Below, one piece after another: positions 1-13,784 of a stretch of 20,000 bases of DNA. The position numbers were made by a program, and so were the translations under genes. The notes under the pieces are model-generated. The model was given only the letters and a program-made list of their open reading frames with translations. It was not told where the DNA came from and did no database searches. This DNA is from an uncultured virus (IMG/VR IMGVR_UViG_3300027793_000086) (taxonomy: Duplodnaviria; Heunggongvirae; Uroviricota; Caudoviricetes), in the IMG/VR virus record IMGVR_UViG_3300027793_000086. One strand, 5' to 3'. How positions within the stretch are numbered: the first letter of the stretch is position 1; each line of letters begins with the position of its first letter.

Positions 1-463
1 CCCCGCTTTGGAACGCCACCGCACCGCCACCTGCGTAGCTGTGCATCTCGCCACCGTGCGCTGCCATGACGGGTGCTGCCTGGGGTTGGAGTTGACGACG
101 GGCCTGTGCCACAACTTCGTCTGCAATCGTGCCTTGCTGCGCAGCGTTTTGTCGCATAGCAAGTTCGTTTGCAACCGCCTTCTTCGTAGCAAAATTCTTC
201 TGCTGTTCAATAATCGCAGCAAGAACTCGGTTCGCGGGCACTGGTGACCTGGGGTCAAACAGCATTTTCGTAAGTTCTTCAGTGTCGTAGCCCGCTGTCA
301 AGGCAGGCACAAACGCCGTCAACCCAGGTTTCGGCCCCGACTGGCTAGGCATCATCCCCGGCATCGGTGGTGTTTGCATAGGCGCTTGACCGGGCATCGG
401 AGCTTGCGCCCCTTGTGGCATCTGCGCCCCTTGTGGCATCACCGAACGAATACCTTGCTGCAT
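1..463 (-). CDS. Putative internal virion/ejection protein, N-terminal part; runs off the left edge; not in ORF track
   Basis: ATG at 463 preceded by TAAGGA (stop of previous gene plus RBS). Frame is open to the window edge: MQQGIRSVMPQGAQMPQGAQAPMPGQAPMQ...PVMAAHGGEMHSYAGGGAVAFQSG. Pro/Gln/Met-rich N-terminus; lies downstream of the other ejection-type genes. Confidence 0.8.
   Translation of the reverse strand, partial: MQQGIRSVMPQGAQMPQGAQAPMPGQAPMQTPPMPGMMPSQSGPKPGLTAFVPALTAGYDTEELTKMLFDPRSPVPANRVLAAIIEQQKNFATKKAVANELAMRQNAAQQGTIADEVVAQARRQLQPQAAPVMAAHGGEMHSYAGGGAVAFQSG
405..440. repeat. Perfect 18-bp tandem duplication (encodes MPQGAQ x2 on the minus strand)
   Basis: tgcgccccttgtggcatc at 405-422 and 423-440. 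Confidence 0.95.
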
Positions 464-472
464 GTCGATTCC

Positions 473-1522
473 TTACTTCGGGTTCATGGCGTTGTACAGC
501 GCCAGTCCAGCCAGTGCGCCTTGCAGGCCGGTAAACATCCCAGACTGTCCAGAGGTTTCAGAGTACGGTGTAGCTTGCAGCGGCAGACCACCCAACAGAG
601 ACTGCATGTACGTAGCTTGCTGATACGGGAACTTCACCGACTCTTGGAACTGCTGATAGCCAAAGTCCAGAGGCTGCTGTGCAATTGCACGTTCCTTCTC
701 TCCCGCTGCCATCTGCGCCTGCAAGCCCTGAAGCCCTGCGCCAAACTGCTCCAAACCATACTTGGCACCGAATTGGCTGGACTGTTCGCCCAACTGCTGC
801 GACTCAAGACCCAACTTGGACTCTGCCAAGCGTTGTTGCATAGCGCGATCATAGGCACCTTGCAGGCCCTTGGTCGTGATGTCCTCCATCTGCTGCTGCA
901 GATTGCGTTGACGCTCAGACTCCATGATGGCTTGGCGTGACCCACCATACGCACCGGCTTGAGCCAGACGCGCTTGCTCTGCTTGCCGCCCGATGTCCGC
1001 TTGGCGGCGCATCTCCCGCGAAGTAATGTCCGTGACAGCCGTTGTGTACGGACTCATGTAGTCTTCGACAGACTTGAGCGAACCAAGACCAGTATCAAAC
1101 TTAGTGCCCTGATACTCGCCAGTAGGTGCTGTTAACCCGGCAATACCCTTAAAAGCCGCTTTCAGACTTTCTGGTGTCTCAGCAAAACGCTGTCCTGTGA
1201 ACGACTTATACGGCAGATTCGCCGCAATTTGCCCCTTCGCCAGCATGTCATAGACATACGACGAGAAGTTAGGGCTCAATGTGGACTGTGCCGCAGGGAT
1301 TGTGGTGGTAGTTGCTGTGACAGGCGTGCCGGTATAGCCTTTGGTTTTCATCCAGTTAATGTCATTCTGAGGCACCCCAGCTTGTAAAAGCTGCGCTTCT
1401 GTAATGCCTTGCTTATTGAAGTAATCGATCTTCTCCAACGCATCATCGTATGCGCCACCTGCTACGCCCCATGTTGAGGGTAGTGTTTTACCAATTCTTG
1501 CGGCCATTTCTTGGGGGGTCAT
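473..1522 (-). CDS. Putative DNA transfer/ejection (internal virion) protein
   Basis: 349 aa, Gln/Ala-rich helical protein with YMSPY, AGAYGGSRQAI and FQESVKFPYQQ segments and a hydrophobic Gly-rich C-terminus (GLQGALAGLALY), typical of podovirus DNA-transfer proteins. TAATG coupling with the upstream gene at 1522. Confidence 0.65.
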   Translation of the reverse strand: MTPQEMAARIGKTLPSTWGVAGGAYDDALEKIDYFNKQGITEAQLLQAGVPQNDINWMKTKGYTGTPVTATTTTIPAAQSTLSPNFSSYVYDMLAKGQIAANLPYKSFTGQRFAETPESLKAAFKGIAGLTAPTGEYQGTKFDTGLGSLKSVEDYMSPYTTAVTDITSREMRRQADIGRQAEQARLAQAGAYGGSRQAIMESERQRNLQQQMEDITTKGLQGAYDRAMQQRLAESKLGLESQQLGEQSSQFGAKYGLEQFGAGLQGLQAQMAAGEKERAIAQQPLDFGYQQFQESVKFPYQQATYMQSLLGGLPLQATPYSETSGQSGMFTGLQGALAGLALYNAMNPK

Positions 1523-2394
1523 TACGCACTCCTCTGCAACTTGTTCATGATTGCGTACATACGCTGTGCACCGCCTTGGTCATCAACTGCGGCTTTGGGG
1601 ACGTACGCTTCACCGTTGGACACTTTGGCAGGGGTTATCCCGTTGGGGCCTCTGATCACGGCGGGGGTGAGATCTTTGCGTCCTGTTGGATCAGGGGGGC
1701 CTCCGATCATTCTCGCACCGGGCACCAGTTGCTGTATACCCCTTGGGCCACCCGCACCGTCCACAGCCTTCTTGGTCATGACGAAGCCGCCATCTTCCAT
1801 TTGTACCTTACCGCCGTTGGCGTAAGCCTGCATCAAGCCGCCGTTGGCTGCGTAGGTCACCAGCGGGCCGTACTTGCCCTGGACTGTAGTTGGCGTGAGT
1901 TGCCTGGACGGACCTGCGTAGGCCTCTGTCGTACCACCGCCGTAGCTGGTGCCCTTCTGCCGGTCGAGGTAGCTGAGCAGCGCTAGGATACCCGCCATGC
2001 CGGTCTTTGATGTGGCAGCGTCGGCAGCCTTGGAGCCGAAAGACTTGATGAGATCCCACGCGCCCTTCCCCGACTTCAGGTATGACAGGTCGTAGTTTTT
2101 GCCAAGAGGATCTGTCCATGTCTGCTTGGACGCATCATATTTCCAATCTTTCCAGCGCTCGTTTGGCCCCGCTGCGATATCGCCAGGAGTTGTGCCGCTG
2201 GCAAAGTCAATAACCCATTTACCAGACGTCTCATCGTAATAGCCTGGAAGGGCATTTAAAAACTCACTGCTGTCCCCAGCAGGTAGGGGCGTTGCGTTTT
2301 GCTGACTGAAATAGTCTGTCCAATCAAAATCTTCGACAGATGGCGTACCACCTGACAGCCAGTTGAAATCGCCGAAGTCTACGTTATCACTCAT
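1522..2394 (-). CDS. Putative internal virion protein with tandem xxGG motifs
   Basis: 290 aa. Acidic/aromatic N-terminus, short hydrophobic helix (GMAGILALLSYL), YAANGG/YANGG/MEDGG motifs, and a C-terminal G-P..G..D..PA...S-NGE-(A)YV domain resembling the GPGTGTSDSIPAxLSxGEFV-type segment of phage internal and tape-measure proteins. GAGAGG RBS. Confidence 0.6.
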   Translation of the reverse strand: MSDNVDFGDFNWLSGGTPSVEDFDWTDYFSQQNATPLPAGDSSEFLNALPGYYDETSGKWVIDFASGTTPGDIAAGPNERWKDWKYDASKQTWTDPLGKNYDLSYLKSGKGAWDLIKSFGSKAADAATSKTGMAGILALLSYLDRQKGTSYGGGTTEAYAGPSRQLTPTTVQGKYGPLVTYAANGGLMQAYANGGKVQMEDGGFVMTKKAVDGAGGPRGIQQLVPGARMIGGPPDPTGRKDLTPAVIRGPNGITPAKVSNGEAYVPKAAVDDQGGAQRMYAIMNKLQRSA

Positions 2395-2395
2395 A

Positions 2396-4129
2396 TCAAC
2401 CTCTCAAATCGTACATCAAGTCAAACGGCGATTCTGGTGTGCCGCGTGCCACGTTAACCTGTGCGGGCGCTTGCCGATCCTGACCTTGTCCGCCCATAGC
2501 GCCGAGGAGTGCAGCAAGCCACTCCAAGTTGGGATCACTGCTGGTGGCAGGTGTAGCCGGTTTCGTCCCAGGCGTGGTCGGTTTCGTCCCAGGCTTCATG
2601 GTGTCAACCTTGGCAGAGGGCAAGCCCGTGACCAGATCCGGCTCTTTGATCTCGGTGCCTTCCAGCTTCTCATCTGGGCTGACCTTGGTCACGGTGCCAA
2701 TGTCTCGAATGCTCTTGGGCTCAATCGGCGGGAAGAGATCCAACGTGTAGTCAGGTATTGGCGTTGTCTCGCGCTTACCCGTAACCTCGATAGTCTGCGG
2801 CTCACCTTCGGTTACGTTGACACGACGCTCAGGATCTACAAACGGTTGCAGCCACGGATCAATGTTCAGGTCATCTCTACGGCCCGTAACACCCACTGTT
2901 TGGCTCGTCTCTTCACTCGGTACTTTGCCTGCCTGCAGTGCGGCATCTAACGCATCATCCCATTCAGGTACGCCCGAATATGTAGGCGTTGCACCTTCTT
3001 GATACCAATCATCGGCAGTTGCGGCTGCAGTTACGTCAATGGTCGGCCTATAAGGATCAAGCGCCCAGTCAGGTAGGTCCCCTGCGTCGGGCTCCATGTA
3101 CCCTGGTCCATCGACATCAAAGAAGCCTTCTTGAATTTCTCCCGGGGTTTCGTATCCAGGGAAGTAACCCTTGCCCCCTGTCGAAGAGGGTAGTTCTTTC
3201 ATCAAGCTGCCAATGAAAGAATTGATAACCGCCTTCTCGGGGTCTTTACCAAGCATGCCTGCCGTAGCGGCGGAGGTTACCGCATTGCGTACTGGTGCAG
3301 GTACATCCTTGAGATACTCGTTAAGCGTAGAGTTTGTGCCTTTGACAAGTACGTCAGTCCCCGCGCTTGTAGCACCGCTAGCTGCGCCCGTAAGCAAAGC
3401 ATCAACAATGCTGTCACCAGTCATTGCAGCACCAAGAGCCGAACGCCCAGCGCCTTGCACAGCACCAGAAGCAATTTTGCCCAGCATATCGCCACCAACG
3501 GCTTGACTTGCTGTCTTGCCAAGGTCTGCTAAATACGGAGAAGCAAGCTGCCCGATACCGCCAGTGACGCCCCCCATGAGAGCGCCCTTAAGAATATCCC
3601 CGCCAGTGACGGCTGCGCGAGTGCCACCTAGCAATGCGCCTGCCCCAGCGGCACCACCTAGACCACCGCCAAGCATTCCTGCAAGACCGGGAGCCGCCCA
3701 TGCAGAAGCTAAAGTGAGCGCAATATTTCGCGCTTTACCCGCATCGCTACTTGATCCCCAGACGGGAACTAAACGCCCATCTTGTGTGGCTACAAGGCTT
3801 ACATTACCCTTACCTTCAGGAGTCCATGCCGCTTGGGCACCGGGATCAAACTTGGCTTGGCTAAGATCTGTGATGCCTTGCTGCTGTAAACGTCGAGCAA
3901 AGTCCTCTGCAACATATGGCAATAACCTACCGCCAATTTCTGCTTGATCTGTCCCAGCACTACCAATACCGACGTTCTCGCCAAGCCCCTGCCACCCGGC
4001 AAGAAGTTGAGTCTTCAGCTTTTCAAGCGAAGCGTCCTGGGCCTTCTGCTGGTCAAGGATCTTCACCAAGTCTTCTTGGGAGACAAAGTCTCGGACATAG
4101 TCCGGCAGGAAGGATGTTAGGTCTTCCAT
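2396..4129 (-). CDS. Putative internal virion/ejection protein with Gly/Ala-rich membrane-like segment and acidic disordered C-terminal half
   Basis: 577 aa. Central glycine-zipper-like stretch (IALTLASAWAAPGLAGMLGGGLGGAAGAGALLGG...), then a D/E/P/T-rich tail. TAATG coupling at 4129. Position after the nozzle fits podovirus ejection genes. Confidence 0.6.
   Translation of the reverse strand: MEDLTSFLPDYVRDFVSQEDLVKILDQQKAQDASLEKLKTQLLAGWQGLGENVGIGSAGTDQAEIGGRLLPYVAEDFARRLQQQGITDLSQAKFDPGAQAAWTPEGKGNVSLVATQDGRLVPVWGSSSDAGKARNIALTLASAWAAPGLAGMLGGGLGGAAGAGALLGGTRAAVTGGDILKGALMGGVTGGIGQLASPYLADLGKTASQAVGGDMLGKIASGAVQGAGRSALGAAMTGDSIVDALLTGAASGATSAGTDVLVKGTNSTLNEYLKDVPAPVRNAVTSAATAGMLGKDPEKAVINSFIGSLMKELPSSTGGKGYFPGYETPGEIQEGFFDVDGPGYMEPDAGDLPDWALDPYRPTIDVTAAATADDWYQEGATPTYSGVPEWDDALDAALQAGKVPSEETSQTVGVTGRRDDLNIDPWLQPFVDPERRVNVTEGEPQTIEVTGKRETTPIPDYTLDLFPPIEPKSIRDIGTVTKVSPDEKLEGTEIKEPDLVTGLPSAKVDTMKPGTKPTTPGTKPATPATSSDPNLEWLAALLGAMGGQGQDRQAPAQVNVARGTPESPFDLMYDLRG
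2558..2594. repeat. 21-bp period duplication encoding PGTKPTT/PGTKPAT linker
   Basis: cggtttcgtcccaggc at 2558-2573 and 2579-2594. Confidence 0.9.
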
Positions 4130-5487
4130 TACGTCAGATCCCAGAATGAGAGGCTACCGATGGCGCTATGGGTGCCGGACAGCGACCGGACGGCCAGCGT
4201 GTAAATGTCCGATGTACCAGCAATGGTTGCGCCAAACTGCAAGTCCCAGTTGTAATCCCCGACCCCAACAGCGATGCCATTGGCAAGGTTGCTAGACAGA
4301 ACGTACTGCTGTTGCACTATGGTCCCGCCTGTGTACGATGTGGCCGAGAGATCTTGCTGGACATTGCTGGAGTCCGACGCCACCCATGAGGCTCCGGTCA
4401 GCGTTGGGTTTTTGACCAGCACAATCTCAAAGGTCGTGGCCGAAGTCGCCGTGGGCAGAACCGAGTATCCATCAGGAATCACGATAGCGCCAGTCCTTCC
4501 CGAAGCAAGGCGCAGGGAAACCAACGGGACAAAGGTCGTGGAGATAGACCCGTTTACCGTGGTCATCCGCGCCACATTCAGCGCAACCTTCTTCTCGTAG
4601 CCGCCCTCAGAAATCACTGTGGAGCAGATTTGCTTGAGTGTGCTGGCACTTGCCGCAGTCCCGGTATTTGTGATCTCGTAACGCACCGGCAGCATGGCCG
4701 TGGTCATGTAGACCGAGTTCAGATTGTTGGCATTCTGGAACGTGTGGCAGATAATGTACCCGCCGTCAATCACGAATCCAACCCGCACCGAGCCGACACC
4801 CAACCATTCAAAGTCTTCCCAGAGGATCTGCGCTTTGGTCAGGTCGAGGGTATACCCTGAATCTCCAGTGCCGTCGAGCTTGTCGCCGTTCCAACTGGAC
4901 TGAGGCACCACCGTATCCACGGGCGCACCGGAGGTGTATGTGCGCCTGACGATGTTGGTGTCCAGCCCGTTGCGCTCAAGAAAGACGCCGTTCTGTTCGT
5001 TGAAGTAACCTACCCTGGTGCGGACGTTGGCCTTGGCGGTATCCATCACAAAGGTGTTGAGCGAGAGCAGGCCCTTCCCAGGCTGATATGAGAACGAGCG
5101 GTATGACTGCCGCACCACTGAGCTACCTGAGCTTGTCGTAACATTGAGCAACACCGTGCTGGCGTTGGCGTCATAGGTCACCGTGCCGCCCGTGGCGGTA
5201 GTCTCGTCAAACAGATCGTTCTTGACGTAACGGTTTTGAGAGTCAAACAGCGTGTATGGCCCGCTGGTGCGTAAACGCCCAAAAGCATCTGTGTTTGTGC
5301 CGCCAATCGAAACTGGAACAGCGCTTCCTGTTGTAGTCACGATCTGCTCCAGCAGGTTATCTAGTTGGTTGAAGTACAGACGTAGGATGTTGACGAGGTT
5401 GTCAAGGTAACCCTTGTCGTAGTCCTGTGTGGGCTTTGGCAGCGGAGGCGCTTTGAAGCGCTTGATGATGGTGGACCAGATAGTCAC
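4129..5487 (-). CDS. Virion structural protein (tail-associated; N-terminal helical anchor plus beta-rich body)
   Basis: 452 aa, GTG start overlapping the nozzle stop (GTGA). N-terminal APPLPKPTQDYDKGYLDNLVNILRLYFNQLD helix, then a TDAFGRLR..PYTLFDS, YQPGK, WNGDKLDGTG, FEWLGVGSVR domain that I recognise from phage structural proteins. Confidence 0.6.
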   Translation of the reverse strand: MTIWSTIIKRFKAPPLPKPTQDYDKGYLDNLVNILRLYFNQLDNLLEQIVTTTGSAVPVSIGGTNTDAFGRLRTSGPYTLFDSQNRYVKNDLFDETTATGGTVTYDANASTVLLNVTTSSGSSVVRQSYRSFSYQPGKGLLSLNTFVMDTAKANVRTRVGYFNEQNGVFLERNGLDTNIVRRTYTSGAPVDTVVPQSSWNGDKLDGTGDSGYTLDLTKAQILWEDFEWLGVGSVRVGFVIDGGYIICHTFQNANNLNSVYMTTAMLPVRYEITNTGTAASASTLKQICSTVISEGGYEKKVALNVARMTTVNGSISTTFVPLVSLRLASGRTGAIVIPDGYSVLPTATSATTFEIVLVKNPTLTGASWVASDSSNVQQDLSATSYTGGTIVQQQYVLSSNLANGIAVGVGDYNWDLQFGATIAGTSDIYTLAVRSLSGTHSAIGSLSFWDLT

Positions 5488-7400
5488 GATTTACGCCCAT
5501 CCAAGCGAACATCAATTCTGGGTGAACCCAACTGCCACTGCACGCCGATCTGATCTGATGCTGCCTTGATAGACATTTGCCTACCGCGCACGCGGATGTT
5601 GACCTGTCCTGTGTACTGATCAATCGGCACCGTTGTGCTTCGCACCACAGGATAGGAGTTATCCCCGGCCACCGACATATCTGTAGTCACAGACGGAACC
5701 GGCACAGTGCCTCGGGTATACCCTGAGCCCGAATTCTGCAAAGGCAGCAGCGTCAGATTCATCGTCGGGCTGGTAGCCGTAGATCCTGTGAAATTGACGT
5801 CAGGGATTACTCGCCAGACAAAACCAAAGTTGTGTCCGTCGTCTATGTCAAACTCGGACGAAGTAATAAACGCTGCAATTGGAAGTGTCGTGACTGTAGC
5901 GTTGTCGTCTACTCCGGTTTCTTGATACAGCAAGCGGTTGTTGTAATCCGCAGCCATCGGCACATCGCTTGAAACGCTTGTGTCAATCCAAGCCGTGCGG
6001 CCCAGGTTGCCGTAGTACCATGCCTTTTCTACATAGTTGTATATGACGTAGCGATCCACAACCGTAGAGCTTGCGGAGCAGTAGAACCACCAGATCTCGT
6101 TAAACTGCTCGTTGGTGGATGCAAAAACTTGTTGTGCTTGGTTGGCATTAAAGTCGCTAAAGACATACTGCCTGAGGTCGCAGACAAGCGTTTCAACGCG
6201 ACCGTCGTAGCGATAAAACTTGCCGTTACCCATCCAATAGTTAATGCCTGCAGCAGTGGCCCAGGCTCTGTCGCTGACAATGGAGGTGTTGTCGGACAGA
6301 AGCTGCGTGCCCCAGACAATTGGCGGGCCGAGGTACTGCAGTGAGTACATAGCCGTATCAGTCCACACCAAAAACTCTTGGCGAACCTGCGCTACAGCTT
6401 CGATTCTTGAGCCGTGGGACAAACGCACACTGCCCGCTTGGTTAGTGGCTGCAGGAGTCCAGTTGACAGCGCTCTCTTGGTCCGACCAGCGAATGAGCAT
6501 GGTGTCCTGCACGCTGGAACCGTAGTCGTTGCAGCCGAACGCCAGCACAAACCGAGAAGTGTCAGATACCGTTAAAAGATGCTGCACCGTTGGAACGTCT
6601 GAAGCTCCAGCCAATGAACTGAGCGCTACACCACGAGTCGTTAATCCAGAAGAATGATCCCAGTAATACATCCCGCCATCTAACGGGCCAAAGATCAGGT
6701 CTTCACCAAAGTTGTCGTGGTTCCAAATGCGGATGTTTGTAAGCGCGGCACCTGTAGTGCCAATACCCCACCCACCACCGCCCCAGCCACCCGCGCCCCA
6801 CCCGGTAAGCGGCACTTGGATAGCGTCGCCTGTATTAACTTGGTAATTGGCGACAACTGCCGCACCACCATACGAACCCGCTGCGATTGACGAGCCCGTA
6901 GTGATTGTGTACGTATCAACGGTCAGAACCGTAATTTGAAACTCAGCATTGAATGTGGAAGCATAAGTGCCTGTAGCTCCACTGAACGTAACGTAATCTC
7001 CGGTGATGCCGCCATGAGCGACATCTGTCACAGTTACTGTGGTTGTACCATTACCCGCAAAAGGATTGCCTGTGCCAGGAGGATTAGGCCCCAGCATTGG
7101 ATTGACAGTCTTCCTGATCGGGGTAATATCGTTGTACACGCCGCCGCCAGCAAGCGCAATGTAGTATTTTAGGTGCGTACCTACGCCAACGTATTTAAGC
7201 CCGTTAAGCGCCGCCCAAGCCCACAACGTTCGACAGACCCCGATGAATTGATCGTTGGTAATTTGTTGCCAACCGCCAATCTTTTCAGGCTGTCCTGAGC
7301 GAAAGCGAATCTTGTCGCACGAAAACCAACCGCCCTCAGTGGAATAGCGGGTTCCTTCGCGGTTGACACCGGGCTTGAGTTGTAGCTTCTTGAGCGGCAT
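5484..7400 (-). CDS. Tail nozzle / tail tubular protein B-like (P22 gp10-like DNA stabilization protein)
   Basis: 638 aa beta-rich. MPLKKLQLKPGVNRE start, KIGGW, IRWSDQE, NEIWWFY, YNY.E..W and C-terminal G.PRIDVRLDGR motifs. Size and position before the ejection genes fit. Confidence 0.75.
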   Translation of the reverse strand: MPLKKLQLKPGVNREGTRYSTEGGWFSCDKIRFRSGQPEKIGGWQQITNDQFIGVCRTLWAWAALNGLKYVGVGTHLKYYIALAGGGVYNDITPIRKTVNPMLGPNPPGTGNPFAGNGTTTVTVTDVAHGGITGDYVTFSGATGTYASTFNAEFQITVLTVDTYTITTGSSIAAGSYGGAAVVANYQVNTGDAIQVPLTGWGAGGWGGGGWGIGTTGAALTNIRIWNHDNFGEDLIFGPLDGGMYYWDHSSGLTTRGVALSSLAGASDVPTVQHLLTVSDTSRFVLAFGCNDYGSSVQDTMLIRWSDQESAVNWTPAATNQAGSVRLSHGSRIEAVAQVRQEFLVWTDTAMYSLQYLGPPIVWGTQLLSDNTSIVSDRAWATAAGINYWMGNGKFYRYDGRVETLVCDLRQYVFSDFNANQAQQVFASTNEQFNEIWWFYCSASSTVVDRYVIYNYVEKAWYYGNLGRTAWIDTSVSSDVPMAADYNNRLLYQETGVDDNATVTTLPIAAFITSSEFDIDDGHNFGFVWRVIPDVNFTGSTATSPTMNLTLLPLQNSGSGYTRGTVPVPSVTTDMSVAGDNSYPVVRSTTVPIDQYTGQVNIRVRGRQMSIKAASDQIGVQWQLGSPRIDVRLDGRKS

Positions 7401-7855: not shown

Positions 7856-8312
7856 GCTTGCCAAGGCTCCGGTCGGCAAAGAAAAAACCCAAGATGGTCC
7901 CCGCCAACGTGATGTCCCACTCCTGCATCAGCCAATTCTGAGAGTTGAGCTTCAGGACCCAGAGCACCAAAGCGATGGTTGCAGCAGAAGGCCGGATGAT
8001 ACCGTTCCAGATGTCCACGATGGCCCAGCCAGTGGGCTTGAATGCGTTCTCGATAGCTTTGGTGAAGGCGTCAGCTTCCGCTACCGCAACATCTGCCTCA
8101 GCCTTGGCCTCTACCGTCTTGATGCCCAGTTCGCTTTGAAGCCTGAGCATCTCTTGAGTACGCTGATGTTGGGCAGCGTCCAGATCACCTTGAAGGCGCA
8201 GGCGCTCAATTTCAAACGCATGGTCTTGCTTCTTGTTATACCAAGCAGAGATTTCGCCCCAAACCATCCGGAATACGGAGCCGCCAAGGAAGGAGAAAAG
8301 GGCTTCAAGCAT
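7845..8312 (-). CDS. Putative holin (3TM-type)
   Basis: 155 aa directly upstream of and overlapping the lysozyme. Hydrophobic N-terminal helix, coiled coil, then IIRPSAATIALVLWVL and ITLAGTILGFFFADRS hydrophobic segments and a basic tail. Confidence 0.65.
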   Translation of the reverse strand: MLEALFSFLGGSVFRMVWGEISAWYNKKQDHAFEIERLRLQGDLDAAQHQRTQEMLRLQSELGIKTVEAKAEADVAVAEADAFTKAIENAFKPTGWAIVDIWNGIIRPSAATIALVLWVLKLNSQNWLMQEWDITLAGTILGFFFADRSLGKRGK

Positions 8313-8331
8313 GCTAAACGCCTTAAATGGA

Positions 8332-9585
8332 TTACAACTGCGTCAAATTTAACGTCAAAGACGCGGTACCTATGGTTCCAGTTGGGCTAGTTCTCGTCAC
8401 AGACAGGGCACTATCTGTTGCGATACTATCACCCCAAAAATCTGTTGTAGTTGTGTTTGTCCATGCACTAGACGCGTACACCACCGAAGAGCTGCCTACT
8501 GTGTACGTTCCTGTTAAAGACCCGTCTGAAGGTAGCTTGGCAAATGAAGTGTTTGTGCCGACGTAAAGATTGTTTGACCTATCGATCTTTAGGCTGTATC
8601 CGAACCCACCCGCAGTGAGGCTTCTTTGCCATACTATAGAACCTGAACTGTTGTATTTTGTTATCTGTGCTTTTCCATCCATGTCGCCTAACGCATACAC
8701 GTTATTGAAAGCGTCTACAGCGACAGATTGGTTACCACCGGTAGCTCCTGTTAAAGTCCTTTGCCACTGTATCGCCCCACTGCTATCAGTCTTCAACAAA
8801 CGTGGCACAGAAGTAACACCTGAAAAACCAGCAGCGTAGATATTATTGTTTTGATCCACCGCAAGATCGTTTGCAGCGCCATACCCAGATAAATACTTTT
8901 TCCATTGTTGAGTACCGCTAGTGTTGTACTTTGAAACGTAAGTACCCCCGTTGTCCCAGCCTCCAACGTAGATATTTTTAGAGCTGTCAAGAACTACACC
9001 TGACAGATAATGGCTTCCTACATATGCTGTTGTTTCGAAACTAGTTTGCTCCACGCCCGACGCATTGAATTTAATAAAAAATCCTAGCTCTTGCGTAGGT
9101 CCTGATTTCCCTACGATATAAACCTCCCCTGTCGCTTTATCTAAAAAACCACCTTGGGACCCTAAAAAGTATTGTTGTACAAAGTTATTGTAAACTATTG
9201 AACCAGAAGAGTTAAGTTTAACTATTGCAAAACCAAGAGCGCCTGTTGAGATCTCGGGTATGGATGTAGAAAAGTAAATATTGCCGTTATTGTCAACGTC
9301 AAAAAATGAAAGGCCGTGGACGCCACTAAACCCAGAAACTGTAGTATTCCAAGTTTTTTGCCACTGTAATACACCGATAGAATTGTATTTTATAATATAG
9401 ACATCATATGGAAATCCGGGACTTGATGCCAATAAGTACACGTTACCGTCGTAGTCTACGGTGGTAAAAATATAATAGTTATAAGATGAGATAGAGCCAA
9501 TCCAATACGGGCCACCGATATTAGCAACGGATAGAAACCCAACTCCTCTTGATGAGGCGACACCACGAGTACCGATTAACGGCAT
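8332..9585 (-). CDS. Beta-propeller repeat protein, putative receptor-binding adhesin of the tail fibre
   Basis: 417 aa. Repeated (V/L)D-x-x-x-N-(I/V)-Y....KYNSSG..(Q/V)WQ blades (SBBP-like). Short N-terminal MPLIGTRG.ASSRG.GF leader. TAATG coupling to the fibre gene; AT-rich. Confidence 0.7.
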   Translation of the reverse strand: MPLIGTRGVASSRGVGFLSVANIGGPYWIGSISSYNYYIFTTVDYDGNVYLLASSPGFPYDVYIIKYNSIGVLQWQKTWNTTVSGFSGVHGLSFFDVDNNGNIYFSTSIPEISTGALGFAIVKLNSSGSIVYNNFVQQYFLGSQGGFLDKATGEVYIVGKSGPTQELGFFIKFNASGVEQTSFETTAYVGSHYLSGVVLDSSKNIYVGGWDNGGTYVSKYNTSGTQQWKKYLSGYGAANDLAVDQNNNIYAAGFSGVTSVPRLLKTDSSGAIQWQRTLTGATGGNQSVAVDAFNNVYALGDMDGKAQITKYNSSGSIVWQRSLTAGGFGYSLKIDRSNNLYVGTNTSFAKLPSDGSLTGTYTVGSSSVVYASSAWTNTTTTDFWGDSIATDSALSVTRTSPTGTIGTASLTLNLTQL

Positions 9586-10574
9586 TATGCAAACCTCGTT
9601 TGAGAGGCCAAAACGGTGAAAGCTGCTGCCCCCGTTTTAATAATTGTGTAGGCGTACACGTCAATACCTGATACGTTACCCACCGTTGGTGCGGAGCCAC
9701 CCTGCCATTTCGGCGTTACCGAAGCACCATCCACCTGCACTGCACTGTTGTAGTACGCCGTGGTTCCTTGGGTAACAAGGAACGCCACCGTCACGCTCTG
9801 CCCCGTGCTCATCGCCGTGTTCAGGCTTGTGCCGCTGCTGGCGCGGAAGTTCACCGTCCAGTTGGCCGAGGCGTTCGTGGTGTAGTACAGCACCGACTGC
9901 GTGGTGATGTCGTAGTTGATCGTACCCGTTGCCGCCGTGGCGGAAATCGTCACTACTTCTGCGGCGTCCGTCAAGACAGTAGCCAACGTACTGGACGAAC
10001 CACTGAAGGTTTGCGTTGCCGTGAAAGTTGTGGCTGTTCCGGGGGCCACGTAGTCAGTGCCCGCAGTAGCGGCAGTGAACGCCGAAGTGCCGTTGCCTTT
10101 GAGAACGCCAGTCAGAGTGGCTGCTCCCGTACCACCAGAAGCTACGGGCAGCGCTGAGCCAAGCGTCAGGGAGCCAAAGTAGTTCGTCGCCGTTACTACG
10201 TCTGTGCCATTGCAACGCAGAAAGGCCGTGGACCCATTGGGGACCGAGATCCCAGACCCAGCAGAGGTCTTGAGCGTTTGTGCAAAGCCCGTGTTGTTGA
10301 AGACGATGTAAACCTTGCTGACCGCAGGACAGATCACATTTCGCGCCAGTCCAGGGGAGCCCGTCAGGTTCAGCACCATCGCCCGCGCTTCGTCGGTTGC
10401 GCCGTTGTTTGAGGACAGCGTGTAGTCCGCTGCCGTCATGGTAATCGTGGCGGTCCCCGCGATGGAGGTGTCCACCAGCGCCGTCAAGCCCGTATTGACC
10501 TGGGTGCCCCACGTACCAGAGTACTCCCCGGTATTAGGCTGGACCAGCCGAAGACTTGTGGTGTATGAAGCCAT
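9585..10574 (-). CDS. Tail fibre protein
   Basis: 329 aa, T/A/S/G-rich. N-terminal GEYSGTWG..N attachment motif, LPVASGGTGA fibre motif, and C-terminal KWQGGSAPT...GIDVYAYTIIKTG fibre-tip domain. Confidence 0.75.
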   Translation of the reverse strand: MASYTTSLRLVQPNTGEYSGTWGTQVNTGLTALVDTSIAGTATITMTAADYTLSSNNGATDEARAMVLNLTGSPGLARNVICPAVSKVYIVFNNTGFAQTLKTSAGSGISVPNGSTAFLRCNGTDVVTATNYFGSLTLGSALPVASGGTGAATLTGVLKGNGTSAFTAATAGTDYVAPGTATTFTATQTFSGSSSTLATVLTDAAEVVTISATAATGTINYDITTQSVLYYTTNASANWTVNFRASSGTSLNTAMSTGQSVTVAFLVTQGTTAYYNSAVQVDGASVTPKWQGGSAPTVGNVSGIDVYAYTIIKTGAAAFTVLASQTRFA

Positions 10575-10577
10575 GAT

Positions 10578-11087
10578 TTAGTGCCAGTTCGGAGACTGGG
10601 GGTTAGAGATCTGCGCCCATGCAGGGGCTTGCGTATCGGGCACTACCGACCATCCCGGCGTTTGACTTGTTCCCGCTGCGGTCCATCCCGGTGTTTGAAT
10701 CGTCCCTGCCGCTGCCCACCCCGGTGATTGGGCGTCTAATATCAGTTGCCAGTTAGGCGTTTGCCCAGATGGGATGGTAATCCAAGAGCCCGATGCCGTA
10801 AAGGAACTTTGCCAGTTTGGACTCTGCGTGCTCAGCACATCTGCCCAGCCCGGAGCTGGCGGTGTTGGAACATTGCCCCACGATGAAGTCTGCGTATTTA
10901 CAACAATCTGCCAATTTGGGATCTGCGTGTCATCAATGATGTTCCACAGTGCCGTAGTGACAGAGACATTCCCAATGAAACCTTGGGCTTGAACTCCAAT
11001 AACCTGAACAATGACACTTGTACCAGAGGAAACTGCTCCGTTGTAACTACCGAAGTAGCTGCCGAAGTAAGTGCCTGCGTAACTCAT
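10578..11087 (-). CDS. Virion protein with Trp-periodic C-terminal repeats
   Basis: 169 aa. YFGSYFGSY N-terminus, then eleven ~11-aa units ending in Q(T/S)PxW. ATGA overlap with the upstream gene. Confidence 0.7.
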   Translation of the reverse strand: MSYAGTYFGSYFGSYNGAVSSGTSVIVQVIGVQAQGFIGNVSVTTALWNIIDDTQIPNWQIVVNTQTSSWGNVPTPPAPGWADVLSTQSPNWQSSFTASGSWITIPSGQTPNWQLILDAQSPGWAAAGTIQTPGWTAAGTSQTPGWSVVPDTQAPAWAQISNPQSPNWH

Positions 11088-11935
11088 GTCGGGTTCAAAG
11101 TTGTTACGTCTCTTGTACCGGTTGTGTAAGAAGCCTGCACTCGGATAGTCGCGCCGTCAACACTGCGGAACACCATTGTGCTCCCTTCCAAACCAGTGGC
11201 ATCTCCAGCATTGACCGCAAGCAATAGCCGCATAACGTCACGCAAGGTCAGAGTGCCTTCTACGATACCTAGCAGTGGATCAGCCGCCGTACCCGCAGAG
11301 TTTAGCAACTCGCCCATCGTGCCGGGGTCGTTGTATGCGCTGGACAAAGCACTCCATACCGCCGCCGCTAAATTTTGCGGGCTGAGTTCTGTAAACGGCG
11401 TGATGTCGCCCGACAGGTTGCCCGTGGCGCGTGGCGTGGCGCTAGCCGAGAACTGCACCAGCGTGGCGCCGACAGCGTCAACGATGGCCCCAAGCGTGGC
11501 GTTGTTGACCGTGAACGTGACTGCTGTGCTGCCCGATGCCGACAGAGCGCCGGCCAAGTTGGCCGCAAGGTTGAACGTGATGGAGGCGTTGCCGACCGCC
11601 GAGACGATCAGTTGCCCGTCTGCCGGGTTGACAGTAATCGTGACCGTCGTAGAGCCGTTAATATTAACGCCAGCCGCAAGATTTAGCAGCCCCGGCGTGA
11701 CCGTCACCACCAGATTGGTGAACGACGACATCGCCCCCGGCTTGTACGGTAGCACCCACGACGATGGCGCGAGGTGCCCGGAGGGGATGCCCGCCAGCTT
11801 GGACGGGATGCCCTGGCCCACGGACTGGTTGCGCAGATCCGTGCGGCCCCACATCGGGCGCAGCGTGCCCACCGCGCCCCCGAGGTGGCGCAGCGGCATC
11901 TGAGCCAGCAATGTGGTGTTCTGCTTCAGCCCCAC
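11084..11935 (-). CDS. Hypothetical virion structural protein (283 aa; start corrected)
   Basis: GGAG RBS 5 nt before GTG at 11935 (MGLKQNTTLL...), overlapping the end of the upstream gene. A/T/G/V-rich beta-strand region, then LSPQNLAAAVW, GTMGELL and TLRDVMRLLLAVNAG motifs. The supplied 433-aa ORF adds a spurious extension. Confidence 0.7.
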   Translation of the reverse strand: MGLKQNTTLLAQMPLRHLGGAVGTLRPMWGRTDLRNQSVGQGIPSKLAGIPSGHLAPSSWVLPYKPGAMSSFTNLVVTVTPGLLNLAAGVNINGSTTVTITVNPADGQLIVSAVGNASITFNLAANLAGALSASGSTAVTFTVNNATLGAIVDAVGATLVQFSASATPRATGNLSGDITPFTELSPQNLAAAVWSALSSAYNDPGTMGELLNSAGTAADPLLGIVEGTLTLRDVMRLLLAVNAGDATGLEGSTMVFRSVDGATIRVQASYTTGTRDVTTLNPT

Positions 11936-12804
11936 GCCATCTCCAGCGAGCCGTAGAAGTTGGTGCTCGCCGCCGTGGCCGCGCCCGCGAAGTACAGCCA
12001 CACCAAGCACGCGCCGTCTTTGACCTGGGGCAGGCTCGGGATCTGGTTCAACAGGTCGCGCTCGCCCGCCACCGAGGCTGTCGTGATCGGCAAGGTCAGC
12101 AAAGGCCGCGCAAGGCACAGCGCCCCGGTGCCGGTGTTTGCGGCGGACATGGTGACCGAGGCCACGTTGGACACGCCTGTGTCGCCGGACGCCAGGGGCA
12201 GGAACGGCCCGTAGTTGTTGGCCGCAGTGCCGGAGTGGCTGATGTGGCCTGCAATCGCCGAGGCAGTCATGGCGACTGTGACCGGCAGCGCCCTGCCCGA
12301 AGTCGGCACCGTGTTGCTGTAGCTGAGCGCGATGTTTTGGGCCGTGGCACCCGCTGCGGCGGTCTGCACCCAGAACAGTCGGCACCCGGCCCCGTTGGTG
12401 TAGCGCAGGCTCGGCGTGCCCGTCAGCGTCTGAGCCACAGCACTGTTGTTGCTGATGCCGGGCCAGTAGCCTTGCAGGTCCACCAGCATCAGTTGTGCAG
12501 GCACGCCCGTGGCCACCGCCGTCACTGCCGAGACGTTCAGGATGTGCTTGGTGTCCGGGCTGACGTTGCCACCGTGCGGGATGCCGAAGATCTGCGTGCC
12601 GTTGCCCGTGGCCTCATCGCAAGTGCGCCACGCCAGCGCAGTGCCCGCCCAAGCGTTTGCCACGGGAGTGCCGTTCAGGTTGCTCATGTCATACCACCGG
12701 CCCGCCGCGTAGGCGGCAGCGCCTGTCAGCTTGTTCCAGTCGGCACGACTGAACTTGCCGCTGGTCATCTCGTTGATCAGATCATCCATCGATGAGAAAG
12801 GCAT
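11926..12804 (-). CDS. Hypothetical phage structural protein, paralogue B
   Basis: 292 aa; collinear motifs shared with 12808..13662; ends in WG. Confidence 0.75.
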   Translation of the reverse strand: MPFSSMDDLINEMTSGKFSRADWNKLTGAAAYAAGRWYDMSNLNGTPVANAWAGTALAWRTCDEATGNGTQIFGIPHGGNVSPDTKHILNVSAVTAVATGVPAQLMLVDLQGYWPGISNNSAVAQTLTGTPSLRYTNGAGCRLFWVQTAAAGATAQNIALSYSNTVPTSGRALPVTVAMTASAIAGHISHSGTAANNYGPFLPLASGDTGVSNVASVTMSAANTGTGALCLARPLLTLPITTASVAGERDLLNQIPSLPQVKDGACLVWLYFAGAATAASTNFYGSLEMAWG

Positions 12805-12807
12805 GCT

Positions 12808-13662
12808 TTATCCCCAGACAAATTGCACCCACCCGCGCAGGGGGGTGTAGTTGGTTGTGTTCAACAGCGCGATCATGTTCAGATACGCGCCTTCTTTGAT
12901 CTCAGGCACGTTGGCGTTCTGATTGAAGAACGTCTTTTCGGCTTGTGTGTTGGCCTCGAAGATCTGAATCTGCGCCAGCGGCTTGACCAGCACGAAGTTC
13001 ACAAACCCACCCGCACCACCCAAGAAGGTGACGCTTTCAATCGACCGGATGCCCTTGTCGCCATTAGCCAGGGGCGCGAACGGGCTCACCGCCGTGCTTA
13101 CGATGCTGTCGCTGCCTGTGTTGCCGATCAGGCCAATGTTGCCCGATGCAGTGACCCCGAAGGTCACTATGCGACCCGCCACACCATTGCTGTTGGTGTA
13201 GTTGACCGTGCACTGCACCGAGTTTGCAGTCGGCGTTGCAATCACGCACATCAGCCTCACGCCATGGCCATCCATGTATCTGGGCAGCGTGAGCGCGTTG
13301 TCCATCGCCTGCGGGTCGGCATCGTCGCCGTCAACCAGCGGGTAGAACATGAGGTAGTCGCACAGCATGAAGTGCGACGGCACCCCCACGCCCGCTGTGC
13401 CGATGGACATGGCGTGCAGGTACTTGGTCAGCCCGACTGGCGGCGTCGGCCCGGCGTAGATGCCCCGGTTGCCCTCGCCGTAGACAGGTGTGGCCTGGAA
13501 CTGTGAGCCGACGTAAGCCTGATAGACCGGGATGCCCGAACCCACCGAGGTGTCCACCCAGCGCCCGCCGACGTTGGGGCCTGTGGTCTTGTAGAAGAAT
13601 GACTGCCAAGTGTTGCTGCCATCCGCAGCATCGCCCAGCACGCGAACGCTATTCAGCGACAT
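12808..13662 (-). CDS. Hypothetical phage structural protein, paralogue A
   Basis: 284 aa; GAGGTG RBS; motifs shared with 11926..12804; ends in WG. Confidence 0.75.
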   Translation of the reverse strand: MSLNSVRVLGDAADGSNTWQSFFYKTTGPNVGGRWVDTSVGSGIPVYQAYVGSQFQATPVYGEGNRGIYAGPTPPVGLTKYLHAMSIGTAGVGVPSHFMLCDYLMFYPLVDGDDADPQAMDNALTLPRYMDGHGVRLMCVIATPTANSVQCTVNYTNSNGVAGRIVTFGVTASGNIGLIGNTGSDSIVSTAVSPFAPLANGDKGIRSIESVTFLGGAGGFVNFVLVKPLAQIQIFEANTQAEKTFFNQNANVPEIKEGAYLNMIALLNTTNYTPLRGWVQFVWG

Positions 13663-13783
13663 CGGGTGTCACCTCAACATGCCAATCCACCGCGCCATCT
13701 GGGTGCTCCGGGCACTGTTGCACCTCGTTGTCCACAAGCTCAAGGCCTCGCAGACAGTGGGCGCAAAAGTACCGCAGAGTCAC
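13649..13783 (-). CDS. Small putative zinc-binding protein (44 aa, CxxC-x13-CxxH); not in ORF track
   Basis: GTG 1 nt after the upstream TGA. Translation MTLRYFCAHCLRGLELVDNEVQQCPEHPDGAVDWHVEVTPDVAE*. Exactly fills the gap and overlaps the start of the next gene. Confidence 0.65.
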   Translation of the reverse strand: MTLRYFCAHCLRGLELVDNEVQQCPEHPDGAVDWHVEVTPDVAE

Positions 13784-13784
13784 A

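What the first reader, a model, noticed from the sequence alone, without database searches (positions are those of the whole stretch)
2768..3046. TonB-box-like repeats in a putative ejection protein: possible hijack of host TonB-ExbBD for genome entry
Seen: the acidic, Pro-rich, probably disordered C-terminal half of the 577-aa protein carries four short beta-strand-like motifs: PTIDVTAA, QTVGVTGRR, RRVNVTEG and QTIEVTGKR. Established: TonB boxes of TonB-dependent transporters look like this (BtuB DTLVVTA, FepA DTIVVTA, common ExVxVTG[SR] forms), group B colicins carry their own TonB box to be pulled through the envelope, and phages T1 and phi80 need TonB. Inference: once ejected into the periplasm, this protein could engage TonB so that proton motive force pulls out or anchors the ejection conduit, with its Gly/Ala zipper entering a membrane. 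I do not know of phage-encoded TonB boxes in ejection proteins.
Basis: partly seen in the sequence, partly recalled or inferred. Interest (0 to 1): 0.8.

Follow-up and report, generated by a model that had tools for sequence, protein, structure and literature searches.

The report
TonB-box-like motif in phage ejection protein
A probable injected protein of an uncultured tailed phage carries, in a floppy acidic tail, a conserved short motif that looks like the "TonB box" bacteria and bacteriocins use to couple to the cell's energy-driven import motor, which suggests, but does not prove, that the phage taps this motor during infection.

Summary
The four motifs are present at the stated coordinates in the 577-aa ORF 2396-4129(-). 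Its C-terminal half is acidic, Pro-rich and predicted disordered. Only two motifs are strong. QTIEVTGKR (aa 445-453) is nearly invariant in homologues. QTVGVTGRR (aa 410-418) occurs in a subset. PTIDVTAA is weak and rare, and RRVNVTEG does not fit.

A profile learned only from 68-69 real TonB boxes of two bacterial genomes scores the two strong motifs at 15-18 and 12 bits (real boxes: median 19.5). The other 22 window ORFs reach at most 9.3 bits. Distant homologues with unrelated tails carry 1-5 copies between Pro-rich linkers.

Gene context (nozzle upstream; "ejection protein" and a >=1998-aa polyvalent protein downstream) fits an internal, ejected protein.

Against: the exact string type also occurs in XerC/D recombinases (36 of 51 bacterial ORFs tested, against 3 TonB-dependent transporters). 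The motifs lie in the C-terminal half, not near the N-terminus. The host is unknown, and no binding evidence exists.

Verdict: a real, conserved short linear motif. TonB-box mimicry is the best single reading (about 0.35) but is unproven. No description of a phage-encoded TonB box turned up in the held literature.

The parts
2396..4129 (-). Gene for the 577-aa protein (P0001), a putative internal or ejected virion protein
   Evidence: ORF and translation. 58 metagenomic homologues and 112 representatives. No Pfam or PHROG family.
3755..4129 (-). N-terminal region, aa 1-125: helix plus a small beta unit, the only part modelled with moderate confidence
   Evidence: AlphaFold2 block pLDDT is 56-86, apart from a dip to 46 around aa 51-60. 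Strands at 99-105, 108-114 and 120-125. Residues 80-123 match designed beta-trefoil repeats in the PDB at E = 2.4e-6.
3140..3754 (-). Central Gly/Ala-rich region, aa 126-330: 38% Gly+Ala, with small-xxx-small zippers. One hydrophobic stretch, aa 135-167, could enter a membrane.
   Evidence: Composition and Kyte-Doolittle scan. Predicted helices of low confidence. This is the part shared with most distant homologues (110 of 158 proteins).
2399..3139 (-). C-terminal acidic, Pro-rich, predicted disordered half, aa 331-577: a mosaic of short conserved modules
2771..2797 (-). Motif QTIEVTGKR, aa 445-453: the conserved copy and the best TonB-box match
   Evidence: Scores 17.8 bits, or 15.1 bits without L136, against a transporter-derived profile. 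T450 and G451 are nearly invariant.
2876..2902 (-). Motif QTVGVTGRR, aa 410-418: second copy, part of a module found in a subset of homologues
   Evidence: Scores 12.1 / 11.8 bits. T415 and G416 are at least 90% conserved among 15 two-motif homologues.
3023..3046 (-). PTIDVTAA, aa 362-369: weak match, found in few homologues
   Evidence: Scores 5.7-5.8 bits. Also seen in P0014, P0038 and P0064 only.
2804..2827 (-). RRVNVTEG, aa 435-442: does not fit the TonB-box profile. It is a conserved lead-in (ERRVNVTEGEP) to the last motif.
   Evidence: Scores -2.7 bits. Alignment.
2399..2434 (-). Conserved C-terminal end, ESPFDLMYDLRG. A possible virion-incorporation or docking signal (inference).
   Evidence: L571, M572, Y573 and G577 are invariant in 15 homologues. 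Consensus ESPFGLMYxLRG.
5484..7400 (-). Upstream neighbour, 638 aa: tail nozzle-like protein
   Evidence: PDB 8zkm_E 'nozzle' at E = 1e-5 and 9nwi_Y at 3.1e-13. phrog_3287.
4129..5487 (-). Upstream neighbour, 452 aa: virion structural protein
   Evidence: phrog_1645 at E = 1.1e-106. 54% identical to Phage DSL-LC04.
1522..2394 (-). Downstream neighbour, 290 aa: unknown, part of the presumed internal-protein module
   Evidence: No family hit. Synteny with DSL-LC04.
473..1522 (-). Downstream neighbour, 349 aa: weak match to a 'DNA ejection protein' family
   Evidence: phrog_4287 at E = 1.3e-5.
2..463 (-). Start of a 573-aa Gln/Pro/Met-rich protein. In the near-identical record G001 it is followed by a protein of at least 1998 aa with an LPD38 domain.

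Best explanation
The 577-aa product is an internal virion protein that is expelled through the tail at infection (inferred). It has three parts: a small N-terminal domain, a Gly/Ala-zipper segment that could enter a membrane, and a long disordered acidic tail that would lie in the periplasm.

The tail carries a conserved short linear motif, [QE]-[TSQ]-[IVL]-x-[VI]-T-[GA]-x-[RKL]. In this phage there are two good copies, QTVGVTGRR and QTIEVTGKR. The motif has the sequence shape of a TonB box (shown).

Most likely mechanism (inferred): the motif pairs as an extra beta strand with the C-terminal domain of the host's TonB, as bacteriocins' boxes do. The proton-motive-force-driven TonB-ExbBD motor would then pull on or anchor the ejected protein, helping to draw out or position the DNA-entry conduit. 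Multiple copies in some relatives would allow repeated pulls.
For: 1. The motif is real and under selection.
- The core occurs 3 times in P0001, against 0.23 expected, and 0 times in 5,534 aa of the other window ORFs.
- T450 and G451 are at least 90% conserved in 30 homologues and invariant in 15.
- 42 of 60 tail-sharing homologues carry it. So do 16 of 89 that share only the central domain. Those 16 have otherwise unrelated Pro-rich tails and 1-5 copies, for example P0088 with five copies and P0143 with three. P0030, which shares neither segment in the census, also carries three.
- Positions not fixed by my search pattern are also biased: Q in 59 of 82 instances two residues upstream, and R, K or L in 72 of 82 instances two residues after the G/A. 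The flanks are not conserved.

2. It matches an independent TonB-box profile.
- Motif discovery on the 60 aa before the Plug domain of 69 TonB-dependent transporters from two genomes gave x-[DE]-[IV]-[VTI]-V-T-[GA]-x-[RK].
- That profile scores QTIEVTGKR at 17.8 bits, or 15.1 bits after dropping the one transporter that had been found with a phage-derived pattern. It scores QTVGVTGRR at 12.1 / 11.8 bits.
- Real boxes score a leave-one-out median of 19.5 bits, with a lower quartile of 10.3.
- Controls: the maximum over 5,358 positions of the other window ORFs is 9.3 bits. 0.05% of 2,000 shuffles reach 17.8 bits. In 375,142 background positions from 400 kb of the same two genomes, 1 reaches 15 bits and 11 reach 12 bits.
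- All five copies in P0088 score 11.8-17.3 bits.
- Reciprocally, a profile built from 60 unique phage 9-mers picks the TonB box as its top position in 63 of 69 transporter N-termini. About 1.3 would be expected by chance.

3. The setting is accessible. The tail is predicted disordered, like the disordered bacteriocin N-termini that carry TonB boxes (PMC12927319, passages). TonB-box activity depends more on local secondary structure than on individual side chains (PMC11658791, passage).

4. The context fits ejection. The gene follows a nozzle-like gene. It precedes a weak 'DNA ejection protein' match and a protein of at least 1998 aa with an LPD38 domain. The order is syntenic with the 'tape measure ... 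DNA transfer protein' block of Phage DSL-LC04.

5. Cultured phages with the same nozzle type are listed with diderm hosts: Pseudomonas, Caulobacter, Pelagibacter, Roseobacter and cyanobacteria.
Against: - There is no evidence of any kind that the peptide binds TonB, or that the protein reaches the periplasm or is even in the virion.
- The exact string type is not specific to TonB boxes. Among 80 bacterial loci matching [QE]TIxVTGK[RS], 51 lay in open frames of at least 120 aa. Of these, 36 were XerC/D-type integrases, where the string is part of a folded domain. Only 3 were transporters with the string 17-27 aa before the Plug domain. The rest were 5 glutaminyl cyclases, 2 VgrG-like, 1 MurG, 1 BatD, 1 Wzt and 2 without a family.
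- The phage motif differs systematically from the sampled boxes. It has Asp or Glu at the fourth position in 57 of 82 instances, against 2 of 69 in the transporters. It has T, S or Q where 52 of 69 transporters have Asp or Glu. Profiles built from each genome alone give only about 10 bits.
- The motifs lie in the C-terminal half. In transporters and bacteriocins a single box near the N-terminus suffices (PMC12927319, passage).
- 18 of 60 tail-sharing homologues lack the core. Several of these are fragments or carry degenerate versions.
- The closest named relative, DSL-LC04, has a different repeat in the same place. Cultured relatives scanned show no clear copy.
- The host is unknown.
- My transporter sample comes from two genomes only. 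One of them was reached through a phage-derived pattern hit.
Confidence: 0.35

Rival explanations
1. The motif is a strand that docks on a phage partner (portal, core, nozzle or another internal protein), or that pairs between copies to build the ejection conduit. Its likeness to TonB boxes would be convergence on a generic edge-strand shape.
For: - Internal proteins must be held in the capsid and later assemble into a conduit.
- The motif is an amphipathic beta-type segment. AlphaFold2 draws strands at 412-416 and 445-449 in the whole-protein model, at low confidence.
- In many homologues the motif is followed by a conserved IIPDWD segment that could form a hairpin.
- The same string is a strand of a folded domain in XerC/D.
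Against: - Copy number varies from 1 to 5, with linkers of variable length and sequence. That is unusual for a fixed structural contact.
- The downstream IIPDWD segment is absent in P0088, P0030 and P0143.
- Conservation of T-[GA]-x-[RK], the same positions as in real boxes, is not required for generic strand pairing.
- The conserved C-terminal end ESPFGLMYxLRG is a better candidate for a virion contact.
Confidence: 0.25
2. The motif binds another periplasmic host protein by strand addition. One candidate is the C-terminal domain of TolA, which is structurally related to TonB's and is already exploited by filamentous phages and group A colicins. Chaperones or envelope-bridging proteins are other candidates.
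For: - The setting is the same as for the best explanation: a disordered tail, a multivalent short motif, a presumed periplasmic location.
- The systematic differences from sampled TonB boxes, an acidic fourth position and no acidic second position, could reflect a different receptor.
- That filamentous phage g3p and colicins bind TolA is recalled knowledge and comes from no call.
Against: - The motif scores like real TonB boxes on a profile learned only from them.
- No profile of TolA-binding segments was built here, so this rival was not tested directly.
Confidence: 0.15
3. The motif is an intramolecular folding element, a strand or hairpin that forms only after ejection or on a membrane. 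It would have no specific partner, and the TonB-box likeness would be incidental.
For: - The XerC/D example shows that the same string serves as an ordinary strand-turn element.
- Two motifs 35 aa apart pair in the low-confidence model.
Against: - Most homologues have a single copy (29 of 60 tail-sharing).
- No fold is predicted even with 50 aligned sequences.
- The flanks diverge freely.
Confidence: 0.15
4. The resemblance is chance and the motif has no particular function.
For: Short motifs recur by chance, and the core pattern was chosen by eye.
Against: - It is conserved across homologues with divergent flanks, and its copy number expands.
- It is rare in controls.
Confidence: 0.05

Closest known systems
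TonB box of TonB-dependent outer-membrane transporters
   Same: - The sequence shape is the same: hydrophobic-x-V-T-[GA]-x-[RK].
- The best copy scores within the range of real boxes (15-18 bits against a median of 19.5).
- It sits in a disordered, often Pro/Ala-rich stretch.
   Different: - It is not followed by a Plug domain or barrel.
- It lies in the C-terminal half of a phage protein.
- It has an acidic fourth position and T, S or Q instead of Asp or Glu at the second.
- There are several copies in some proteins.
TonB boxes in the disordered translocation regions of group B colicins, S-type pyocins and klebicin C
   Same: A foreign protein presents its own box in a disordered region, so that TonB-ExbBD pulls it into the periplasm (PMC12927319, passages). 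This is the mechanism proposed here.
   Different: - Bacteriocin boxes are single and near the N-terminus (same paper).
- Here they are internal or C-terminal, and 1-5 in number.
- The carrier would arrive through a phage tail rather than by binding a receptor on its own.
- No sequence homology was found.
Filamentous-phage g3p binding to TolA (recalled; from no call)
   Same: A phage protein exploits a periplasm-spanning, energy-coupled host protein for entry.
   Different: - The host system is different (Tol, not Ton).
- A folded domain binds, rather than a linear motif.
- The virus type is different.
Internal or ejection proteins of podophages (T7 gp14-16, P22 gp7/gp20/gp16; recalled)
   Same: - The gene sits in the late module next to tail genes.
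- It is mosaic and poorly conserved, with a possible membrane segment.
- It is presumed to be expelled to bridge the envelope.
   Different: - No family match to any of them.
- No TonB-box-like motif has been described for them in the literature searched.
Phage DSL-LC04 'tail tape measure protein' (759 aa, OR003939)
   Same: It occupies the same position after the nozzle-like and 452-aa-like genes. It is Gly-rich in the middle and has a repeat-bearing tail.
   Different: Its tail carries five tandem YAGMDLSSAQGTLGGPS repeats and no VTG motif. No tblastn match to P0001.
XerC/D tyrosine recombinases
   Same: They contain the string ETIRVTGKR or close variants.
   Different: There it is part of a folded cytoplasmic catalytic domain. 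There is no homology to P0001. It serves as a warning that the string alone is not diagnostic.

Membership tests
TonB box (functional TonB-binding motif) | Sequence fits the profile of genuine TonB boxes | tested here: met
   QTIEVTGKR scores 17.8 / 15.1 bits and QTVGVTGRR scores 12.1 / 11.8 bits on a profile from 69 / 68 transporters. Real boxes have a median of 19.5 bits. Controls are far lower. The reciprocal profile finds the box in 63 of 69 transporters. PTIDVTAA (5.7-5.8 bits) and RRVNVTEG (-2.7 bits) do not fit.
TonB box (functional TonB-binding motif) | Lies in an extended or disordered, accessible segment | tested here: met
   pLDDT is below 50 over most of 330-577. The tail alone gives pTM 0.18 and no strands. 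This is a prediction only.
TonB box (functional TonB-binding motif) | [quoted passage not shown] | tested here: not met
   The motifs are at aa 362-453 of 577. Transporters and bacteriocins carry the box near the N-terminus.
TonB box (functional TonB-binding motif) | Binds the TonB C-terminal domain by strand addition | not testable with these tools
   This needs a binding assay or a structure with the host's TonB. The host is unknown.
TonB box (functional TonB-binding motif) | Function depends on TonB-ExbBD and the proton motive force | not testable with these tools
   The phage is uncultured. No cultured phage has a homologue.
TonB box (functional TonB-binding motif) | The string is specific to TonB-dependent proteins | tested here: not met
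   Of 51 bacterial ORFs with [QE]TIxVTGK[RS], 3 are transporters and 36 are XerC/D-type integrases.
Podophage internal / ejection proteins | Gene lies in the late structural module beside tail and other internal-protein genes | tested here: met
   Nozzle-like gene upstream. phrog_4287 'DNA ejection protein' and a large protein with an LPD38 domain downstream. Synteny with DSL-LC04.
Podophage internal / ejection proteins | Sequence or fold homology to a characterised ejection protein | tested here: not met
   No Pfam, PHROG or PDB sequence match of that kind. No fold search was run, because the model is of low confidence.
Podophage internal / ejection proteins | Present in the virion and released on infection | not testable with these tools
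   This needs virion proteomics and ejection assays.

The most novel reading that the evidence does not exclude
A lineage of podophages equips an ejected protein with one to five TonB boxes spaced 32-59 residues apart. The host's proton-motive-force-driven TonB-ExbBD motor would then reel the disordered tail, and with it the entry conduit or the leading end of the genome, across the outer membrane and periplasm hand over hand, perhaps through the lumen of a TonB-dependent transporter used as receptor. This would be a phage counterpart of bacteriocin import. It would mean that TonB-dependence of a phage can reside in the phage's own injected protein and not only in the receptor.
Probability: 0.15. 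Interest if true: 0.9.

Novelty: new variant of a known kind. Interest (0 to 1): 0.6.

Why it matters
How tailed phages with short tails get proteins and DNA across the outer membrane and periplasm, and where the energy comes from, is largely open.

TonB-dependence of phages such as T1 and phi80 has been ascribed to the receptor (PMC11658791, passages). A TonB box carried by an injected phage protein would be a second route, copied from or convergent with bacteriocins. It would give a concrete, testable energy source for ejection. It would also make TonB a predictable resistance locus for such phages.

Even if the partner is not TonB, the finding stands as a conserved, copy-number-variable linear motif in the disordered tail of a presumed ejected protein. 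It would be a handle for finding the partner, host or phage, that this tail contacts.

Tried and rejected
- Complex prediction of E. coli TonB 148-239 with P0001 400-470 gave no verdict: score 0.01 against a mark of 0.32, and the controls were not run. It counts neither for nor against binding. E. coli TonB is also only a stand-in for an unknown host.
- tblastn of P0001 and megablast of the whole window against 50,697 phage records found no match. No cultured relative of this protein is therefore available.
- No whole genome is held for the window. The nearest record, G001, is a 26-kb fragment.
- A scan of bacterial genomes with alignment A2 found no relative. This gave no prophage or host clue.
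- The pattern scan for the exact string type in bacterial genomes was meant to show enrichment at transporter N-termini. Instead it showed mostly XerC/D recombinases. My choice of Lys at the eighth position biased it, and it is reported as evidence against specificity.
- The ESM Atlas gave only unnamed viral clusters, all below 0.85.
- PDB sequence searches of the 290-aa, 349-aa and 452-aa neighbours found nothing.
- Cultured relatives by nozzle type (HTVC023P, CRP-901, Pag-Yong1), plus DSL-LC04 and HMO-2011 (the latter two reached through the 452-aa protein), were scanned with the TonB-box profile. There were only scattered hits of 10-13 bits and none in a comparable tail.
- I considered a prohead-protease cleavage site and an outer-membrane beta-signal. 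Neither fits: the position before V varies (E, D, N, T, G), and there is no terminal aromatic residue.
- No supplementary files of any paper were consulted.
Full report
**What is there**

All plausible genes of the window lie on the minus strand and form the late module of a podophage-like virus. Identified parts are:
- SU10-type adaptor domains (PF24175) and a GP4 gp80-like fibre protein;
- a phage lysozyme;
- a 638-aa protein matching solved 'nozzle' chains, 8zkm_E and 9nwi_Y;
- a 452-aa virion protein, phrog_1645 at E = 1.1e-106.

The ORF in question follows at 2396-4129(-), 577 aa. After it come a 290-aa ORF, a 349-aa ORF with a weak 'DNA ejection protein' match (phrog_4287, E = 1.3e-5) and the start of a further ORF.

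In the near-identical record G001 that last ORF is 573 aa. It is followed by a protein of at least 1998 aa with an LPD38 'large polyvalent protein' domain and a faint virion-RNA-polymerase match.

The closest named genome, Phage DSL-LC04, has the same order: holin, endolysin, 'stabilization protein', a 474-aa protein, a 'tail tape measure protein', two hypothetical proteins and a 'DNA transfer protein'.

Cultured phages with this nozzle type are listed with Pseudomonas, Caulobacter, Pelagibacter, Roseobacter and cyanobacterial hosts, all diderms. The reading 'internal or ejected protein of a phage of a Gram-negative host' rests on context only. The protein itself has no Pfam, PHROG or informative PDB match.

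**The observation**

The translation contains the four motifs at aa 362-369, 410-418, 435-442 and 445-453, which is nt 2771-3046.

The C-terminal 247 residues are 12% Pro and 18% Asp+Glu, with net charge -25. AlphaFold2 gives pLDDT below 50 for nearly all of 330-577. With 50 aligned homologues the tail alone still gives pTM 0.18 and virtually no secondary structure. The part before the tail divides into two:
- Residues 1-125 are modelled with moderate confidence.
- Residues 126-330 are 38% Gly+Ala, with one hydrophobic stretch at 135-167.

The core [ILVM]x[VI]T[GA] occurs three times, against 0.23 expected. 39 of 20,000 shuffles reach three. It never occurs in the other 22 ORFs. No DNA duplication links the copies.

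**Conservation**

The word-index search found 58 homologues. The exhaustive search found 112 representatives. All are metagenomic, giving 158 proteins in all including the query.

The C-terminal half is a mosaic of short modules. The last motif is the most conserved feature of that half:
- T450 and G451 are at least 90% conserved in 30 sequences and invariant in 15.
- Of 60 proteins that share the tail after the motifs (aa 471-577), 42 carry the core. Several of the 18 without it are fragments or carry degenerate forms such as QTIDIIGKR or QQIEVVGNR.
- Of 89 that share only the central domain, 16 carry it in otherwise unrelated tails. P0088 has five copies (EQVLVTGNR, EQVTVTGNR, EQVTVTGSR, EKITVTGNR, QKVVVTAPR) between Pro/Ala-rich linkers. 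P0143 has three. P0030, which shares neither segment in this census, also has three.

Over 82 unique instances, positions that my pattern did not fix are also biased: Q or E two residues upstream, T, S or Q one upstream, and R, K or L two residues after the G/A. The flanks carry little information.

QTVGVTGRR belongs to a module seen in a subset. PTIDVTA occurs in three other proteins only. RRVNVTEG is the lead-in to the last motif.

**Is it TonB-box-like?**

I built the comparison from real data. Plug domains (PF07715) were located in two bacterial genomes, with 58 and 23 matches. The N-termini of 70 of them were fetched, and 69 were long enough to use.

Motif discovery without any phage input, on the 60 residues before the Plug domain, gave x-[DE]-[IV]-[VTI]-V-T-[GA]-x-[RK]. 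The site lies typically 13-35 residues before the Plug domain.

This profile scores the window's motifs as follows:

| Motif | Score in bits |
|---|---|
| QTIEVTGKR | 17.8 |
| QTVGVTGRR | 12.1 |
| PTIDVTAAA | 5.8 |
| RRVNVTEGE | -2.7 |

Real boxes, scored leave-one-out, have a median of 19.5 bits and quartiles of 10.3 and 23.1.

One genome had been reached through a transporter that matched a phage-derived pattern. Dropping that transporter gives 15.1 and 11.8 bits for the two strong motifs.

Controls:
- The maximum in 5,358 positions of the other window ORFs is 9.3 bits.
- 0.05% of 2,000 shuffles reach 17.8 bits.
- In 375,142 positions of long open frames from 400 kb of the same genomes, one position reaches 15 bits and eleven reach 12 bits.

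Profiles from either genome alone give only about 10 bits.

Reciprocally, a profile from the 60 unique phage 9-mers puts its top score on the TonB box in 63 of 69 transporter N-termini, against about 1.3 by chance. This test is partly circular.

**Evidence against specificity**

- 29 hits lay in short, probably non-coding frames.
- Of the 51 in open frames of at least 120 aa, 36 are XerC/D-type integrases. The others are 5 glutaminyl cyclases, 2 VgrG-like proteins, 1 MurG, 1 BatD, 1 Wzt and 2 without a family.
- Only 3 are transporters. In those the string does sit 17-27 residues before the Plug domain.

So the string by itself does not mark a TonB box, and context decides.

The phage motif also differs systematically from the sampled boxes. 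It is acidic at the fourth position in 57 of 82 instances, against 2 of 69 in the transporters. It lacks the Asp or Glu that 52 of 69 transporters have at the second position.

The motifs also lie in the C-terminal half. A single box near the N-terminus is the rule for transporters and bacteriocins (PMC12927319, passages).

**How it most likely works**

Shown:
- a conserved linear motif of variable copy number in a predicted disordered tail;
- a sequence shape within the range of genuine TonB boxes.

Inferred:
- the protein is packaged and ejected;
- its tail lies in the periplasm;
- the motif adds a strand to the TonB C-terminal domain;
- TonB-ExbBD then pulls or anchors it, as described for pyocin S2 and klebicin C (PMC12927319, passages).

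TonB-box function is reported to depend more on local secondary structure than on particular side chains (PMC11658791, passage). This makes binding physically plausible. It equally allows other strand-accepting partners.

I put TonB mimicry at about 0.35, a phage-internal docking or assembly strand at 0.25, another periplasmic receptor such as TolA at 0.15, a partner-less folding element at 0.15 and chance at 0.05.

**Novelty**

Four full-text searches found no paper describing a TonB box encoded by a phage structural or ejection protein:
- 'TonB box' + 'ejection protein' + 'phage': 0 papers.
- 'TonB box' + 'bacteriophage' + 'tail': 18 papers, none on this by title or abstract start.
- 'TonB box' + 'phage-encoded': 0 papers.
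- 'TonB' + 'internal virion protein' + 'periplasm': 4 papers.

One of the four, on pelagiphage Skadi, mentions a phage gene annotated as a TonB-dependent receptor and treats it as a receptor clue, not as a box (PMC10504331, passages). The library lacks most subscription journals.

The principle is known from bacteriocins: a foreign protein carries its own box. A phage ejection protein doing so would be a new variant of that principle.

Noticed in passing
L008 (Phage DSL-LC04) 10671-12950: The protein at the position of P0001, annotated 'tail tape measure protein', carries five tandem copies of YAGMDLSSAQGTLGGPS in its tail instead of the VTG motif. The tails of this protein class appear to swap short repeated motifs.
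   Followed up: partly
window 1522-2394 (-) and L008 10671-12950: The C-terminal end of the 290-aa neighbour (…GEAYVPKAAVDDQGGAQRMYAIMNKL…) resembles the C-terminal end of the DSL-LC04 759-aa protein (…GEFVFTAKAVRGMG…RMYALMKAL…). This could be a shared terminal module among the internal proteins.
   Followed up: no
window 3761-3892 (-), aa 80-123 of P0001: This stretch matches single repeats of designed symmetric beta-trefoil proteins in the PDB (E = 2.4e-6). AlphaFold2 draws three strands there. It may be one trefoil-like blade.
   Followed up: no
L221 6000-11993 (record G001, downstream of the window): A protein of at least 1998 aa, open at the contig end, with an LPD38 'large polyvalent protein' domain (E = 1.6e-34) and a faint virion-RNA-polymerase match. 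It is probably an injected polyvalent protein.
   Followed up: partly
window 17037-17525 (-): An HNH homing-type endonuclease gene sits inside the structural module, between tail and adaptor genes.
   Followed up: no
window 8001-14000: G+C falls to 47.6% over the 417-aa beta-propeller-repeat gene (8332-9585) and rises to 60-63% over 10001-14000. This suggests mosaic origin of the fibre and receptor-binding genes.
   Followed up: no
window 11084-12804 (-): Two long ORFs on the same strand, 433 aa and 292 aa, overlap by about 460 nt in different frames. Neither has a family match. This could be a mis-set start, a spurious frame or a frameshift.
   Followed up: no
window 18912-20000 (-): The partial ORF matches the head spike fibre Rcc01080 of the Rhodobacter capsulatus gene transfer agent (PDB 6tb9, E = 1.7e-42).
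   Followed up: no
L011-L090 (bacterial loci): XerC/D-type recombinases of Sphingomonadales and Bacteroidota conserve the string ETI[RQK]VTGKR. It is a look-alike of TonB boxes inside a folded cytoplasmic enzyme.
   Followed up: yes
window 2548-2589: A tandem 21-nt repeat encodes GTKPTTP / GTKPATP in the low-complexity stretch after the motifs.
   Followed up: no
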